Assembly (NCBI GenBank): GCA_951406725.2
Contig: OX597816.1
Coordinates: 16,678,001-16,742,000 of the forward strand
Source of the DNA: Octopus vulgaris
Lineage: Eukaryota
DNA length: 64,000 nt
Direction of reading: 5' to 3'
Positions within the stretch are counted from its first letter, which is position 1. The number at the start of each line of letters is the position of its first letter. This document shows positions 3,342-25,205 of the stretch, in pieces. Made by a program: the position numbers and the translations under genes. The notes beneath the pieces were generated by a model. The model saw only the letters and a list, made by a program, of their open reading frames with translations, made no database searches and had not been told where the DNA came from.

Positions 3342-3678
3342 AGTTTTGGGATTTGGTTTGCAAGATTCTTTATATGAGTTCGTGTGTTGAAACATATTCA
3401 GTTGTGTCTGGGGAGAGTCATTTCTTTTTGTGCCTTATAATGTAACACACTCACCAGTAAAATTTCCACTTTTTTCTCATTTTTATTCTCCTAAAATTTT
3501 CGTTGCGTCTTGCAACCTTTTCAATAGTTTTGACTCAAAACTATTGAAAAGGTTGCAAGATGCAACGAAAATTTTAGAACAATAAAAATAAGAAAGAAAT
3601 TAGTGGAAATTTTACTGGTGAGTGTGTTACATTATAAGGCACAAAAAGAAAATGACTCTCCCCAGACAAAACAGAATA
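3342..3678 (-). mobile_element. Fold-back element inserted in (TAA)n with two hammerhead-like motifs
   Basis: About 140-bp inverted arms 3395-3533 and 3535-3678 around a 1-nt centre, extended left arm, (TAA)n on both flanks. Confidence 0.75.
3541..3577 (+). ncRNA. Hammerhead-like motif with U3-A8 core
   Basis: CUA UUGAAAA G GUUGC aagau GCAAC GAAA AU UU UAG; mirror copy on minus strand 3491-3527. Confidence 0.55.
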
Positions 3679-3696
3679 ATAATAATAATAATAATT

Positions 3697-4152
3697 GTTT
3701 CAAATTTTGGCACAAGGTCAGAAGTTTTAGGGAGTGATGGTTAATTAATTACAATGACACCAGTACTGGACTGGTACTACATTTTATCAATCCTGGAAGG
3801 ATGAAAGGTAAAGTTACCTCATCATGATTTGAACAATTCAGAAAATAAAGAGCCAGAAGAAATGCTGCTAAACATGTTGTTCAATGCTCTAACAATTCCG
3901 CCAGCTTGCCAACAACAACAATAATAATAATGATGGTCTCAAATTTTTGACACAAGGCCAGCAGTTTCTGATGAAAGGGATGGTTGATTACATCGACCCT
4001 CAATACTCAACTGGTATTCTTATTTTATCAAACCTGAAAGGATGAAAGGCAATGTTGACCTCAGCAGAATTTGAACTCAGAACATAGAGATGAATTAAAT
4101 GCTGCTCAGCATTTTGCCCAGCATGCCAACGATTCTGCAAGCTTGCCTCCTT
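3697..4152 (-). mobile_element. Two older S2-related SINE copies in tandem
   Basis: aaggatgaaagg..gacctc..gaatttgaactcag motif twice; similar decayed copies near 860-1110, 4300-4440, 6200-6290 and 58700-58820. Confidence 0.65.
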
Positions 4153-4169
4153 AAATCGTAAATGATGAT

Positions 4170-4279
4170 GATAGTAGTAGTAGTAGTAGTAGTAGTAGTA
4201 GTAGTAGCAGCAGCAGCAGCAGTAGCAGCAGCAACAGCAGTAGTAGTAGTAGTAGTAGTAGTAGTAGCAGTAGTAATAG
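4170..4279. repeat. (TAG)n/(CAG)n compound microsatellite
   Basis: Direct reading. Confidence 0.95.
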
Positions 4280-6284
4280 TTTCTTTTAAAAAAGTGCATT
4301 GTTTAAAATTTAGGAAAGGAAAAAGGGGATTAAAATGATCCAAGTAGTTAAGTATTTAACTGGTACTTTATTTCATGAATCCCCAAAAGATGAAAGATGA
4401 AGTAGAATGCAGTAGGATTTGAACTTAGAACTTAAAAGGACATAAATACACAAGGTATTTTGTTCAATATTCAACTATTACAAGTTAAAAATATTTAAAA
4501 CTGCTAAACTATATCTTTTGAAAAGATCAAATATGATAAAAGTCCCACAAAAAAAAAAAAAAAAAATTAAATTATATATTTAAAAAAATTGGAAACTTTT
4601 CCAATATAAAGCCTGAAAAATTGATATTTGGAAAGCAGTAATTGAAAACACGAATTCATATATTGGGAGCATGAGGAGGGGTTGACAAATAACATAAATA
4701 AACATGTAAGAATTTATAAAATAAGGATTTACATACAGACATGAAATATAGAAATTCACAACTCCATTTTGTGCAAAATAAGAAAATGATGTTATATATC
4801 ACGTCTTATACAAACTATAATCAATGTCATGAAAATATTTCAAAAACCCCTCAAAATATAAAATAACAATTCACATCCCTAAGATTGATATAGCTGAGTT
4901 TAGATGTACATTGAAAAATATTAAAAAAAAAAAAAATGGTGGTGATGATGATGATGATGTTGGGTGGTGGTGATAATGAGAGAATATAAATAACAATAGG
5001 GCAAATATGTGGATGGATGCCTTTTCATAACAGGCAGTTTACAATTGGAAGAGAAATATTCGCAGAAGAAAGAGAAAATGTAGATGCACTGGAAAAATTT
5101 AACAAAAGGTTTTTCCGATAGAGGACTGCAATTGTGGTTTGAAATAAGACTCTTGAAAATATATAAAAATCTCAACAGAAATAATTATTTAGATTTCTTT
5201 TTATTTTTCGGAAGAAAGTTGAGAAGTACCCTTGTCCTTTAAAATTGTGACAGGCATCTTAAAGAACTACAGAAAACTCAATCATATCTTGATAGTGTTG
5301 CAACAAAGTGATAGAAAAAGAAAAGAAGTAAAAAAAAATAAAGGGAAAAAATCAAACATTTAAGAGTGAATATTTCAAGATGTTTCCTATTTCTTCTTTT
5401 CTTCACCAGTTAGCCAAGCTGAATGCGATTGTGAGAAACTACACTTGGTGACAAAAATCATTAAATTATCCTTCATAATTGTGAAACACTAATAAGACTC
5501 CCACCAAGGGAATTTCAATGTGGTTGTTAGACATAGCAGTTAAATTTCATTCAAATTCCATCCTGCCTTCTTAAAAAAAAAAAAAGATATACTGGATAAT
5601 ATAGTCTGAAGTTAACTAATGCCCGAATAGAAAGATTAAATGATTATGACTGGATTATAGATATATTCAATGGTGAGGGTTGCAAACCTCTCATGGTGTG
5701 AGCATAAGACCAAAGGAGTGATTTAGATGCAATCCACCCATCTCTACTATTGTTGCTCAATGCAGAATAGGCTTAGCTGATAACAGCTATGATGCTAAAC
5801 ACCAGACCATATCAGATGTTATATTTTGGAGACTTTTACACATGAATAAAGGATGAAGACCACTCAACTATGTTGATGATATTGTCAGAGATACACAACA
5901 TGAAATAAAGAACATACCAAAGATAATGGGAGACAGAGATTTCTGGATGTGGCATGATGAAATGAATTGCAATTGTAGCTGCATGAAAAAAATGCTCAGT
6001 TAAGGCTGACTCAGGGCTAAGTAACAACAACAGACTAATACAGTTTAAAGGTTTCATATAGACATTTAAATGGGAAAATTAATTACTGTGTTCCGTACCT
6101 CACTGCTTAAAACAGAAAATTGAAAAGATTAGAAATGCAAAATTAAGAAGACTCAAGAAGTTAAAGTAACAAACCAAGGAGAGAATGAGACTATTGATTT
6201 CAAATTTTGGCACAAGGCCAGCAATTTCAGGGGAGTTGGGTAAATCAAATTGTATCAGCTCCAGTACTCAACTGGTAACTATTT

Positions 6285-22925: not shown

Positions 22926-23055
22926 TGACTTGATTTGATTTTATATGTAGTTAATAGTGTGTCTGTATGTGCAATAGAGAAATCCTTAAGAGAAAGGTCA
23001 ACAGGTGGAAAGGTATGCACACACACACACACACACACACACACACACACACAGA

Positions 23056-23335
23056 TATATATATTTTAAAAGAAATGAGGTACTCAGAAATCTGGATGGT
23101 TTTATATTTACAGATATTTATTAGTATGTTACGTGTTTTTATAAATCATATATTAACGCTTTCGCCCACTCTAGTGGAGTTGTCAGATTTGACAACCCTA
23201 CTAGAGTGGGCGAAAGCGCTAATATATGATTTATAAAAACATGTAACATACTAATAAATATAAAACCATCAAGATATCTGAGTACCTCATTTCTTCTAAT
23301 ATATAATACCTGTGCATCATCTCCAAACCTTCTAA
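23056..23335 (+). mobile_element. Fold-back element inserted in (TA)n with degenerate hammerhead motifs
   Basis: About 120-bp inverted arms centred on gtcagatttgac (23182-23193); right arm reads UUGACAA C CCUACU ag AGUGGG C GAAA GCGC UA. Confidence 0.7.
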
Positions 23336-24380
23336 TATATATATATATATATATATATATATATATATATATGATATACAAAAACAAAACAAAAAATTGT
23401 GTATGTTGAAAGCAAAACTCTAAATAATTAAGGAAAATTAAATTTCTGCTCATTTAGAATATAAAAAATGTTGCTTCTTAAACAATTTAATGAGGAATCT
23501 TTAAATTTTTGATGAATTTTTCCCTTTAAGAAACCTTTGTAAAAATTGATTCATCAGTTTCCAACAGACTTTGTTCTACAAACTCAATTAAATTAAGTCA
23601 ATATTTTATATTTAGGCTTGGATATTTTATTAGAGTTTTCAAAGATCATAAATTTGATAAATTGTACAAAATTTGAATTTAATTAATATCAGTTTTCATC
23701 AGTCTAATTTAGATAATAACATAATTGATGTGGTTGGGCAATAATTTATGAGAGGAGGGTTTTTTTACATCTAAAAATTCTTATTTTGGTAAAGGTTAAA
23801 CAATCAACTTAAGAAGTATAAGATCAGTATTGTAATTTGTTTTCAAGTGTTTGTAAATATATTTACCTCAGCTAATAAAGTAACCCACAAAATTAAAAAA
23901 TTTCGTTAACTAAATATTGAGATTTATTATAAACATAAGCAATCTGTATCTGTGTCTGTGAAAATATGTTTCTTTTGAAGAAATTTTAGCAGGTTTTACA
24001 TCTAAAGAGCAACTTTTGCATCATTTTTAAATGTCACCTGAATTAGAGCAGTAAGAAAGTTTACAGATAATTAAGATAACAGAAATCAGTAATTTCACTA
24101 AAAGTAAACATTTGTACCAGGTGAACCTAATCTTTATGGCAAAATAATGTATCAGATAAAATAAAAGTCCCAAACAGATAAGATAAAGTAAAATTATTTT
24201 TGTACTGAATTCAGCTAAAGTAAACCAGTCTTACAGAATCCTTTACATCTTTTTTCAACTGTTACCTTAAATACTTGTAGCAGTATCTGATATCCTCACT
24301 GTTTGAGAGACACAATAAGAATGATCTCGTTTGAGATTACAACCATCTTTGGCTAGTTTGACCCTGTTGTGTCCACAGCT

Positions 24381-24630
24381 CTGATTGGTTGGCATCTAGC
24401 GCTGTTTGTCACTCCACTTATTTCGCGCCAGGATGTAAAAGCCAACCAATCACGGCCTTCGGACAGGATGCTTCATTTGAGCCACTTTAACTCTTTAAAT
24501 AAGCCTGCTTTCGCTATTCTTCATCTTTTGGCCCCAGACCTTTTAAGGTCTGGTCACTGACCACAGAGCTACTCAGCCATGTTCCAGTTCCAGTGACAGA
24601 CAGCCAGCCAACCACATGCAAGCAGGTAAA
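24381..24630 (+). promoter_or_regulatory. Candidate Pol II promoter / first exon
   Basis: Inverted CCAAT pair (ctgattggttggc 24381-24393, gccaaccaatca 24441-24452), TATA-like tttaaataa 24494-24502, pyrimidine-rich Inr-like stretch, possible donor GCAG|gtaaaa at 24625/24626, locally CpG-richer. Confidence 0.35.
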
Positions 24631-24888
24631 ATGCATGCAACACTACAATAACATTAACATGACAATAATATCACCTGTCTTAGAAATGAATTGCTTTAAT
24701 AGTAACAATAGTGAAATTATTGTGTCTAGTTCTCAGATGACCTACAACTTATCAAAGGAGCATGTACAGTACATAGAATTATGTACAAATGTTAGGAACT
24801 AGTACACTGCCTGTTATTTCATAAAAGAATAAATAAAGAGCATTTTTGTTCTTAATTTTTGTTTAATATAATAATAATAAATAATATA

Positions 24889-25205
24889 AGCCATTCGATT
24901 CACTTCAACATTTAAGTTTAATTTGTCAAAATATTTTCGTCGCTTTAAGACCGTGACCTGTTCACTGACAGCATAGATTTTTGTCAGTGAACAGGTCGCG
25001 GTCTTAAAGCGACGAAAATATTTTGACAAATTAAACTTAAATGTTGAAGTGAATCGAACGGCTTTTGTGTGTTTCTTAAATGGCTTACAAACACCTTCTA
25101 CGTGTGTTTCTTAAATGGCTTACAAACACCTTTCACGCTGCAATTGTTTTCGTTTCAGCACATGATCTCAGATCAAATCACTTGCTATGCAAGTACATCT
25201 CCGTA
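24889..25205 (+). mobile_element. Fold-back element (Penelope-like inverted pseudo-LTR) with two hammerhead-like motifs
   Basis: 83-bp inverted arms 24888-24970 and 24982-25064 (2 mismatches), 11-nt spacer, extended right arm; candidate TSD aataaataatata at 24876-24888 and 25206-25218. Confidence 0.75.
24980..25030 (+). ncRNA. Hammerhead-like motif with swapped G3-C8 core
   Basis: UUUGUCA GUGAACA G GUCGC ggucuuaaa GCGAC GAAA AUAU UU UGACAAA: 7-bp stem I, 5-bp stem II, palindromic stem III AAUAUU; mirror copy on minus strand 24922-24970. Confidence 0.65.

What the first reader, a model, noticed from the sequence alone, without database searches (positions are those of the whole stretch)
3342..25205. 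Four unrelated microsatellite-inserted elements carry minimal hammerhead ribozymes whose core pair 3-8 co-varies (C-G, G-C, U-A)
Seen: at 9503-9550(-), 24980-25030(+), 3541-3577(+) and 23189-23225(+) the sequence parses as stem I / N3-U-G-A-N-N8-A9 / extra nt / stem II / GAAA / short palindromic stem III / UH / stem I. The cores are CUGAUGA, GUGAACA, UUGAAAA and UUGACAA, so positions 3 and 8 stay Watson-Crick complementary while U4, G5, A6 and A9 are invariant. Stem II co-varies too (GUCGC/GCGAC versus GUUGC/GCAAC), and stem III is always a loopless palindrome (ACAGCUGU, AAUAUU, AAUU, AGCGCU). Three of the elements are fold-backs whose axis lies just 5' of the core, and all four sit in (TA)n/(TAA)n. 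Established: C3-G8 is a tertiary WC pair in the active hammerhead fold and compensatory swaps can rescue cleavage; Penelope-like elements carry minimal hammerheads with palindromic stem III in their pseudo-LTRs, often in inverted arrangement. Inference: these are non-autonomous Penelope/retrozyme-like families using non-canonical cores that CUGANGA-based searches would miss.
Basis: partly seen in the sequence, partly recalled or inferred. Interest (0 to 1): 0.88.

Follow-up and report, generated by a model that had tools for sequence, protein, structure and literature searches.

The report
All four hammerhead core pairs, retrotransposons
Four short repeats in this animal genome are likely clipped ends of Penelope-type jumping genes, each with a miniature hammerhead RNA motif that is predicted to cut itself, and across the genome's families one paired position of its core occurs in all four possible base pairs, two of which I did not find reported from nature; cutting has not been tested.

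Summary
The four motifs are real (7 descriptor hits against 0.12 per shuffle). Each belongs to a dispersed repeat family. Family cores: A C3-G8 (31/32 arms), B G3-C8 (50/54), C U3-A8 (38/40); D is mixed and decayed. With positions 3 and 8 free, 28 of 31 hits in a blind 1-Mb sample pair Watson-Crick. D is the 3' end of an RT+GIY-YIG Penelope-like element with a U3-A8 core. Two sister lineages of such elements carry G3-C8 (51/58) and A3-U8 (33/33) right behind the endonuclease gene, so all four pairs occur. Corrections: B and C look homologous, not unrelated; no coding parent was found for A, B or C; whole fold-back transcripts would bury the ribozyme; older relatives have U.G and C.A cores. U3-A8, the palindromic stem III and inverted ends are published. 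Natural G3-C8 and A3-U8 were not found in my searches, but two key papers were not held. This scan noted G3:C8 and A3:U8 before on other DNA of this and other genomes. New variant of a known kind; cleavage untested.

The parts
3342..3673 (.). Family C fold-back insertion: two head-to-head arms, axis at about 3534, about 10 nt 5' of each core
   Evidence: 768 first-look candidates in the genome
3342..3394 (-). Family C optional 3' tail (about 55 nt), present on the left arm only
   Evidence: long/short ends in 17 of 20 loci
3491..3527 (-). Family C left-arm minimal hammerhead, core UUGAAAA (U3 at 3524)
3541..3577 (+). Family C right-arm minimal hammerhead, core UUGAAAA at 3544-3550 (U3-A8), stem II GUUGC/GCAAC, stem III AAUU
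   Evidence: U3-A8 in 38 of 40 distinct arms
8941..9100 (-). Family A: second, tandem copy of the long tail
9282..9429 (-). Family A: optional tail of about 150 nt after a short TA run
   Evidence: tail in 8 of 30 loci
9445..10145 (-). Family A: 5'-truncated 3' end of an element whose non-coding end is at least 1.1 kb long; no fold-back here
   Evidence: 2779 first-look candidates
9503..9550 (-). Family A minimal hammerhead, canonical core CUGAUGA at 9546-9540, stem III ACAGCUGU
   Evidence: C3-G8 in 31 of 32 arms
23050..23334 (.). Family D fold-back insertion; axis 1-2 nt 5' of the cores; right arm carries the 31-nt tail (about 23305-23334)
   Evidence: about 80% identical to the 3' end of RT+GIY-YIG elements L215/L221/L228
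23150..23186 (-). Family D left-arm motif, core CUGACAA (C3/A8, unpaired)
23189..23225 (+). Family D right-arm motif, core UUGACAA, stem I only 2 bp; probably decayed
24888..25205 (.). Family B fold-back insertion; left arm shortened at its outer end, right arm complete with tail and an internal 35-nt tandem duplication (about 25068-25137)
   Evidence: 9 insertions per Mb, about 25,000 in the genome
24922..24970 (-). Family B left-arm minimal hammerhead, core GUGAACA (G3 at 24965)
24980..25030 (+). Family B right-arm minimal hammerhead, core GUGAACA at 24987-24993 (G3-C8), 7-bp stem I, stem II GUCGC/GCGAC, stem III AAUAUU
   Evidence: G3-C8 in 50 of 54 distinct arms; no other letter reached 1% at the core in four runs

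Best explanation
The four repeats are likely the reverse-transcribed 3' ends of Penelope-like retroelements, each holding a minimal type I hammerhead motif whose core positions 3 and 8 differ between families yet stay complementary, which points to selection in the coding parents for a fold predicted to self-cleave. How it would work: the parent element (reverse transcriptase plus GIY-YIG endonuclease) carries the motif in its terminal repeat; two copies pair through the palindromic stem III, probably helped by the element's protein, and cut after the base that follows stem III (inferred from PMC4209133 and PMC11167929). The endonuclease nicks AT-rich DNA, and copying starts at one of two sites 110-200 nt downstream of the motif, which gives the short and the tailed end. 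A second, inverted copy is joined head to head at short self-complementary stretches, which gives the fold-backs (inferred). B, C and D are very short families of this kind, moved in trans. In them the ribozyme is probably a passenger: a transcript through both arms forms one long hairpin, and family D has let the core decay. Shown here: motifs, family states, covariation, the link of D, G and H to endonuclease genes, two alternative ends. Inferred: cleavage, dimer formation, the copying route, the parents of A, B and C.
For: Family states. Blind 1.0-Mb sample, 3/8 free: 28 of 31 hits Watson-Crick (15 C-G, 11 U-A, 2 G-C), controls 0, 1, 1, 1 hits; grouped by eye into 15 families, 13 paired against a background of 0.26, P 1.7e-6; without C-G families 7 of 9, P 7e-4. 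D matches the 3' end of RT+GIY-YIG elements, including the tail and both end points; their core is U3-A8 in 36 of 36 arms. A young full-length element (L212: repeat, ORF1, 781-aa RT+GIY-YIG, repeat) has U3-A8 in both repeats. Family H: G3-C8 in 51 of 58 matches with 3/8 free (hand count), GIY-YIG coding sequence just upstream in 9 of 16 loci. Family G: A3-U8 in 33 of 33 arms, endonuclease hits in 19 of 30 loci. G and H are sisters in the endonuclease tree (95/90), among U3-A8 families. Long/short end pairs in 17 of 27 B, 17 of 20 C, 11 of 16 D loci, never long/long, as described for these elements (PMC8557442, PMC3846280, PMC11167929). The engineered C3G/G8C swap partly restores cleavage in a Penelope hammerhead (PMC11167929) and was the only rescuing double change in a full pairwise scan (PMC9901934).
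Against: No cleavage data. No coding parent for A, B or C. Recurrent unpaired or wobble cores: family D (14 of 36 arms not Watson-Crick; A13 changed to C in 14), and among the first 100 of 292 B/C-type matches with an altered stem III 72 Watson-Crick, 11 U.G, 17 mismatched (hand count); three old fold-backs all read C3/A8. In PMC9901934 U-A and A-U swaps did not rescue. G and H have only a 2-bp stem II. In PMC11167929 cleavage was not needed for insertion in vitro and no RNA ends were seen at the cut site. B-C homology is distant: one of four B/C pairings was at chance (z 0.7) and B-G also scored z 5.4. The tree rests on 121 columns of partly broken copies. Families were sampled as the best matches to my queries.
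Confidence: 0.75

Rival explanations
1. The 3-8 pair is kept for the fold alone, as a binding or positioning site for the element's protein; the swapped cores cut little or not at all.
For: Cleavage was dispensable for insertion in vitro and needed the protein (PMC11167929); U-A and A-U swaps were inactive in one scan (PMC9901934); families with A13C or U4C cores sit behind endonuclease genes here; three short families keep arms that start just 5' of the motif.
Against: G5, A6, G12, A14 and a non-G base at 17, which matter for catalysis (established hammerhead knowledge, recalled), are kept in B, C, G, H, E and the D parent; the 3-8 pair forms in the catalytically active conformation (PMC3884650, passages).
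Confidence: 0.2
2. G3-C8 in family B is a founder accident: one master copy with two chance changes was amplified without selection on the ribozyme.
For: B has no known parent, its ribozyme is buried in fold-back transcripts, and D shows that such families tolerate a broken core.
Against: All other core positions and stems of B are intact; diverged B relatives with another loop II also read G3-C8 (L379, L390; found by a pattern that asked for it or left it free); an independent lineage H has G3-C8 behind an endonuclease gene.
Confidence: 0.08
3. B, C and D are fold-back DNA transposons (MITE-like) that happen to contain a hammerhead-like stretch.
For: They are short, palindromic and very numerous.
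Against: The two ends differ (one tailed, one short), single arms occur alone (L129, L145, L177, L250), junctions vary from copy to copy, and D matches a retroelement end.
Confidence: 0.04

Closest known systems
Minimal hammerheads (min-HHR) in the pseudo-LTRs of animal Penelope-like elements (Cervera and De la Pena 2014, PMC4209133; read: main text parts 1-2 of 4, supplement parts 1-2 of 3)
   Same: Type I layout, short stem I, extra base between 9 and 10.1, palindromic stem III, mostly solitary truncated copies, pairs on opposite strands, and a U3-A8 family (about 1,300 hits in Schistosoma mansoni).
   Different: Their alignment of 56 motifs has C3-G8 except two U3-A8 and one U3.G8; no G3-C8 or A3-U8 (their descriptors fixed the core, so they could not have found them). 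Here U3-A8 is about as common as C3-G8 and G3-C8 reaches about 25,000 insertions.
Natural U3-A8 core covariation (Perreault et al. 2011, PMC3088659; passages)
   Same: Compensatory change at the 3-8 pair; 2-bp stems II are also noted there.
   Different: Only U3-A8 is named in the passages seen; here all four Watson-Crick pairs occur.
Engineered C3G/G8C hammerheads (Frangieh et al. 2024, PMC11167929, parts 1-2 of 4; Roberts et al. 2023, PMC9901934, passages)
   Same: Same swap as families B and H; partial rescue of cleavage, once in a Penelope hammerhead.
   Different: Laboratory mutants; here the swap is the family state in nature.
Neptune-type Penelope-like elements with inverted, tailed ends (Craig et al. 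2021, PMC8557442; Arkhipova et al. 2013, PMC3846280; passages)
   Same: C-terminal GIY-YIG after a cysteine linker, inverted 5'-truncated copy, optional tail on one end, TA bias, palindromes at head-to-head junctions.
   Different: B, C and D consist of the last 150-250 nt only, with the junction just 5' of the ribozyme; tails of B and C are about 55-60 nt and of A about 150 nt, longer than the 30-40 bp described. Assignment to Neptune rests on the linker motif as described in those passages, not on a tree with named elements.
Animal non-LTR retrozymes (bioRxiv 10.64898/2026.07.22.740005, part 1 of 5 read)
   Same: Non-coding derivatives of Penelope-like elements that carry type I hammerheads.
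   Different: Retrozymes are head-to-tail arrays; B, C, D are single or head-to-head arms. True tandem arrays occur elsewhere in this genome (L121, L339).

Membership tests
Minimal type I hammerhead (min-HHR) | U4 G5 A6, A9, G12 A13 A14, A15.1-U16.1 and H17 | tested here: met
   A, B, C majority; D often not: A6 changed in about 8 and A13 to C in 14 of 36 arms
Minimal type I hammerhead (min-HHR) | C3 and G8 as in the consensus CUGANGA | tested here: not met
   Met by A only; B G3-C8, C U3-A8, D mixed
Minimal type I hammerhead (min-HHR) | Positions 3 and 8 complementary | tested here: met
   A 31/32, B 50/54, C 38/40; D 22/36, so not met for D as a family; 28/31 in the blind sample
Minimal type I hammerhead (min-HHR) | Stems I and II, palindromic stem III allowing a dimer | tested here: met
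   Single arms of B and C fold stem II with probability 0.99; the stem III dimer was the best co-fold for A only, B and C dimerised through other helices
Minimal type I hammerhead (min-HHR) | G10.1-C11.1 closing pair | tested here: inconclusive
   Present in B, C, G, H, E; replaced by a mismatch in A, D and the D parent
Minimal type I hammerhead (min-HHR) | Site-specific self-cleavage | not testable with these tools
   No bench data; only contigs, no raw RNA reads, were offered
Penelope-like element (EN+) | Linked reverse transcriptase and GIY-YIG gene | tested here: inconclusive
   Met through homology for D and for G, H, E; no parent found for A, B, C
Penelope-like element (EN+) | Inverted 5'-truncated copy next to a direct copy | tested here: met
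   B, C, D; A on both strands in 4 of 30 loci
Penelope-like element (EN+) | Optional 3' tail on one end | tested here: met
   17/27 B, 17/20 C, 11/16 D loci long/short; 8/30 A loci tailed
Penelope-like element (EN+) | Insertion bias for AT-rich or (TA)n DNA | tested here: met
   All four window copies end at TA or TAA runs; 24 of 63 loci of B, C, D; no background rate computed
Non-LTR retrozyme | Head-to-tail tandem units each with a hammerhead | tested here: not met
   None seen in the B, C, D loci read; the one close direct B pair fetched is a segmental duplication
Non-LTR retrozyme | Circular RNA intermediate | not testable with these tools
   No raw RNA reads
MITE / fold-back DNA transposon | Matching terminal inverted ends and a fixed-length target duplication | tested here: not met
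   Ends are unequal and single arms occur; target duplications were not counted systematically

The most novel reading that the evidence does not exclude
Penelope-like elements of this genome have run the hammerhead's catalytic 3-8 pair through all four Watson-Crick states (U-A to A-U and G-C on sister lineages, G-C again in the B/C group), every state still cuts, and G3-C8 has spread to tens of thousands of copies. This would be comparative proof that these elements are selected for a cleaving ribozyme in vivo, and would mean that consensus searches miss about half of the hammerheads in such genomes.
Probability: 0.5. Interest if true: 0.7.

Novelty: new variant of a known kind. Interest (0 to 1): 0.55.

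Why it matters
Whether Penelope-like elements need their hammerhead is open: one study found cleavage dispensable for insertion in vitro (PMC11167929), another suggests the motifs may merely parasitise the elements (PMC8557442). A pair that forms in the active fold and co-varies through four states in coding lineages is indirect evidence for selection on that fold, and supplies ready natural constructs to test it, with family D as a decayed control. Practically, 13 of 28 paired hits in 1 Mb have a non-consensus core, so CUGANGA and Rfam scans undercount hammerheads here. The architecture itself, and U3-A8, are known.

Tried and rejected
Rfam scan: no hammerhead family among the 150 matches shown. 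Pfam family PF26215 is not in the library. Search for a parent of B: 30 of 48 long-leader copies read, none with coding sequence upstream; B and C arms did not match the 3' ends of the 20 endonuclease loci fetched at 10 kb or the 30 at 3 kb, except as insertions; 12 older B/C relatives had no endonuclease hit within 350 nt upstream; a longer-leader B subfamily exists (526 exact matches), so the 5' end is not fixed as I first thought; its one direct pair at 3,455 bp that I could fetch is a segmental duplication without ORF, and that copy reads G3/A8. Head-to-head pairs 0.4-2.4 kb apart could not be read. A 76-codon open frame in the B arm has no Pfam match and is interrupted by a stop in copies with a common substitution (seen): taken as chance. 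A Penelope ORF beside an A copy (L093) ends in a different 3' UTR: not A's parent. Pair count on a sequence-only alignment: columns 3 and 8 paired in 13 of 14 rows, but my stem I columns were misplaced and row A misaligned, so only indicative. Sequencing runs: no RNA holder listed; contigs show neither ends nor expression. One search returned only C copies lacking one A. G-H nucleotide similarity downstream of the motif is at chance (z 0.6); their kinship rests on the protein. Literature searches for natural G3-C8 or A3-U8 returned none; Lunse et al. 2017 (PMC5785218) and Przybilski and Hammann 2007 (PMC1986816) were not held, and the first of these describes many Penelope hammerhead variants and could contain them. 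Part 3 of the PMC4209133 supplement and figures drawn as pictures were not seen.

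
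Full report
Setting. The window is G000:C3:16678001-16742000 of a 2.8-Gb animal genome, rich in microsatellites. My guess of an octopus rests on size and repeat content and was not tested. I call the four elements A (9503-9550, minus), B (24980-25030), C (3541-3577) and D (23189-23225).

The observation. All four parses are in the sequence. A descriptor with positions 3 and 8 left free found 7 sites in the window, 6 of them Watson-Crick, against 0.117 per shuffled window; with stricter stems 4 against 0-0.017. B, C and D are fold-backs (93%, 91%, 85% arm identity), A is not. Rfam showed no hammerhead among the 150 listed matches.

Families. Each element is a dispersed repeat: first-look candidates 2779 (A), 1362 (B), 768 (C), 1714 (D). 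In 100 blind 10-kb stretches taken at round coordinates, B had 9 insertions and C 4 at 84% identity or more, about 25,000 (12,000-48,000) and 11,000 (3,000-29,000) genome-wide. From the 30 best loci of each search, distinct arms gave: A C3-G8 in 31 of 32, B G3-C8 in 50 of 54, C U3-A8 in 38 of 40. The two arms of one locus are not independent. Contigs of four public runs laid on a single B arm (8365, 2076, 113 and 495 laid) showed no other letter at 1% anywhere in the core, while 22 changes were listed elsewhere (limited to contigs at least 85% alike). D is different: 18 U-A, 7 C/A, 7 U.G and 4 C-G of 36 arms, A13 changed to C in 14, and the fold-back junction falls at the core itself (counted by eye).

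Is the covariation real? A scored descriptor with 3 and 8 free, run on the blind 1.0 Mb, gave 31 hits at score 22 or more: 15 C-G, 11 U-A, 2 G-C and 3 unpaired (one a second register of a paired hit); one reversed and three shuffled controls gave 0, 1, 1 and 1 hits. Grouped by eye into 15 families, 13 are paired against a background of 0.26 (P 1.7e-6); leaving out C-G families, 7 of 9 (P 7e-4). Over 21 families labelled from all my calls, 19 are paired against 8.0 after shuffling (1 of 200,000 shuffles); kin share states, so this overstates independence.

Parents. A GIY-YIG search scored 150 of 6136 candidates. They are Penelope-like elements with a cysteine linker and a C-terminal endonuclease. 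L212 is complete: repeat, ORF1, a 781-aa RT+GIY-YIG ORF, repeat, with UUGAUAA in both repeats. D matches the 3' end of another such family (L215, L221, L228) at about 80%, with the same two end points and 31-nt tail; that family has U3-A8 in 36 of 36 arms. Family G (L218) has AUGAAUA, A3-U8, in 33 of 33 arms, about 270 nt behind the endonuclease stop; a stem I pair varies as G-C 11, A-U 7, A/C 15. A pattern for G3-C8 with stems III other than B's gave 240 matches against 166 for the reversed control, with one recurrent family, H. With 3 and 8 free, H reads G3-C8 in 51 of 58 matches (3 G/G, 3 G.U, 1 U/C, hand count), and 9 of 16 fetched loci have endonuclease coding sequence just upstream. In a tree of 17 endonuclease pieces (121 columns) G and H are sisters (95/90) inside a group of U3-A8 families. 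So C-G, U-A, G-C and A-U all stand behind Penelope-like endonuclease genes in this genome. No parent was found for A, B or C.

B and C. They align collinearly over about 190 nt (score 54, shuffles mean 22.5, best 37; downstream only 34 against best 32), share stem II and the place of both ends; one old arm matches both. The signal is weak: B2 against C2 was at chance and B against G also scored z 5.4. If they are homologues, G3-C8 against U3-A8 and the C-G to U-A change in stem II are true compensatory changes. Older members of the group carry U.G, C-G, U-A, G-C, C/A and A/C cores: of the first 100 of 292 matches with an altered stem III, 72 were Watson-Crick, 11 wobble, 17 mismatched (hand count; this pattern enriches for decayed copies), and three fetched old fold-backs all read C3/A8. 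Covariation is therefore strong but not absolute in non-coding families.

Anatomy and mechanism. In B, C and D one outer end usually carries a tail and the other stops short (17 of 27, 17 of 20, 11 of 16 loci; none long/long); single arms also occur. This fits two internal start sites of reverse transcription, shown for an anole element (PMC11167929), and the inverted, tailed ends described for the class (PMC8557442, PMC3846280). Junctions lie 1-30 nt 5' of the core at short self-complementary stretches and vary between copies; a B subfamily reaches further upstream. A transcript across a whole fold-back forms one hairpin, with stem II probability 0.00 in B, C and D; single arms of B and C give 0.99, D 0.1. 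I infer that the ribozyme works, if at all, in parent or single-arm transcripts as a dimer, perhaps protein-assisted, and rides along in the fold-backs.

What is known. Cervera and De la Pena (PMC4209133) describe the minimal motif, the extra base, the palindromic stem III, opposite-strand pairs and about 1,300 U3-A8 hits in a schistosome; their 56-row alignment has no G3-C8 or A3-U8. Perreault et al. (PMC3088659) report natural U3-A8. The G3-C8 swap is known as an engineered rescue (PMC11167929; PMC9901934, where other double changes stayed low). Five searches found no natural G3-C8 or A3-U8, but Lunse et al. 2017 and Przybilski and Hammann 2007 were not held, so the claim of novelty is provisional. 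Earlier notes of this scan report G3:C8 and A3:U8 singly in this genome, other animals and phages; I had found G and H before those look-ups and treat the notes as leads only.

Verdict. Real motifs of a known kind, with two core variants that seem undescribed, and a clear case of four-state covariation in one genome. Cleavage is untested, one of the four elements is decayed, and the architecture is published. Interest 0.55.

Noticed in passing
window 54055-54173 (+): Full-length 5S rRNA-like sequence, 98 bits against Rfam RF00001, with several mismatched pairs; a dispersed copy or the head of a 5S-derived repeat.
   Followed up: no
window 7270-7580, 17966-18270, 20670-20850, 22553-22730, 26570-26880, 31600-31800, 34240-34550, 38630-38850, 41460-41655, 46220-46410, 51190-51380, 56140-56330, 62200-62390, 63586-63770: An abundant SINE-like family ending in (GAT)n, more than ten copies on both strands (families D7, D9, D12, D19, D20).
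   Followed up: no
L214, L216, L222 against L220, L227: A Penelope-like family whose better-kept copies read CCGAAGA (U4 to C) while relatives read CUGAAGA.
   Followed up: no
L219 about 6500-6560: Penelope-like 3' end with a U3-A8 core and G-C-A-A in place of G-A-A-A (A13 to C), as in a subfamily of D.
   Followed up: partly
L121 3082-4512 and L339 (minus): Tandem retrozyme-like arrays of about 355-360 nt; L121 has C3-G8, the L339/L160/L332/L199 group U3-A8; the two groups resemble each other mainly around the ribozyme.
   Followed up: partly
L211, L212 and 19 more rows with a 781-aa open frame: A young Penelope-like family with many apparently intact two-ORF copies and a U3-A8 hammerhead; a source of protein for in vitro tests.
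   Followed up: partly
L031-L060, centre of family C: The junction recurs in a few types, and a one-base difference between the two arms next to the centre recurs in many loci, which suggests that the centre is inherited from palindromic master copies rather than made anew each time.
   Followed up: no
L394 1-276 and 3456-3731: Two identical B copies with flanks 3,455 bp apart: a recent tandem segmental duplication or an assembly repeat.
   Followed up: partly
L377, L378: A further two-copy family with GUGAACA and stem III ACAUGU but a long, poorly paired stem II region.
   Followed up: no
window 5406 (-): Weak descriptor hit with G3/G8 and a 2-bp stem I; taken as chance.
   Followed up: no
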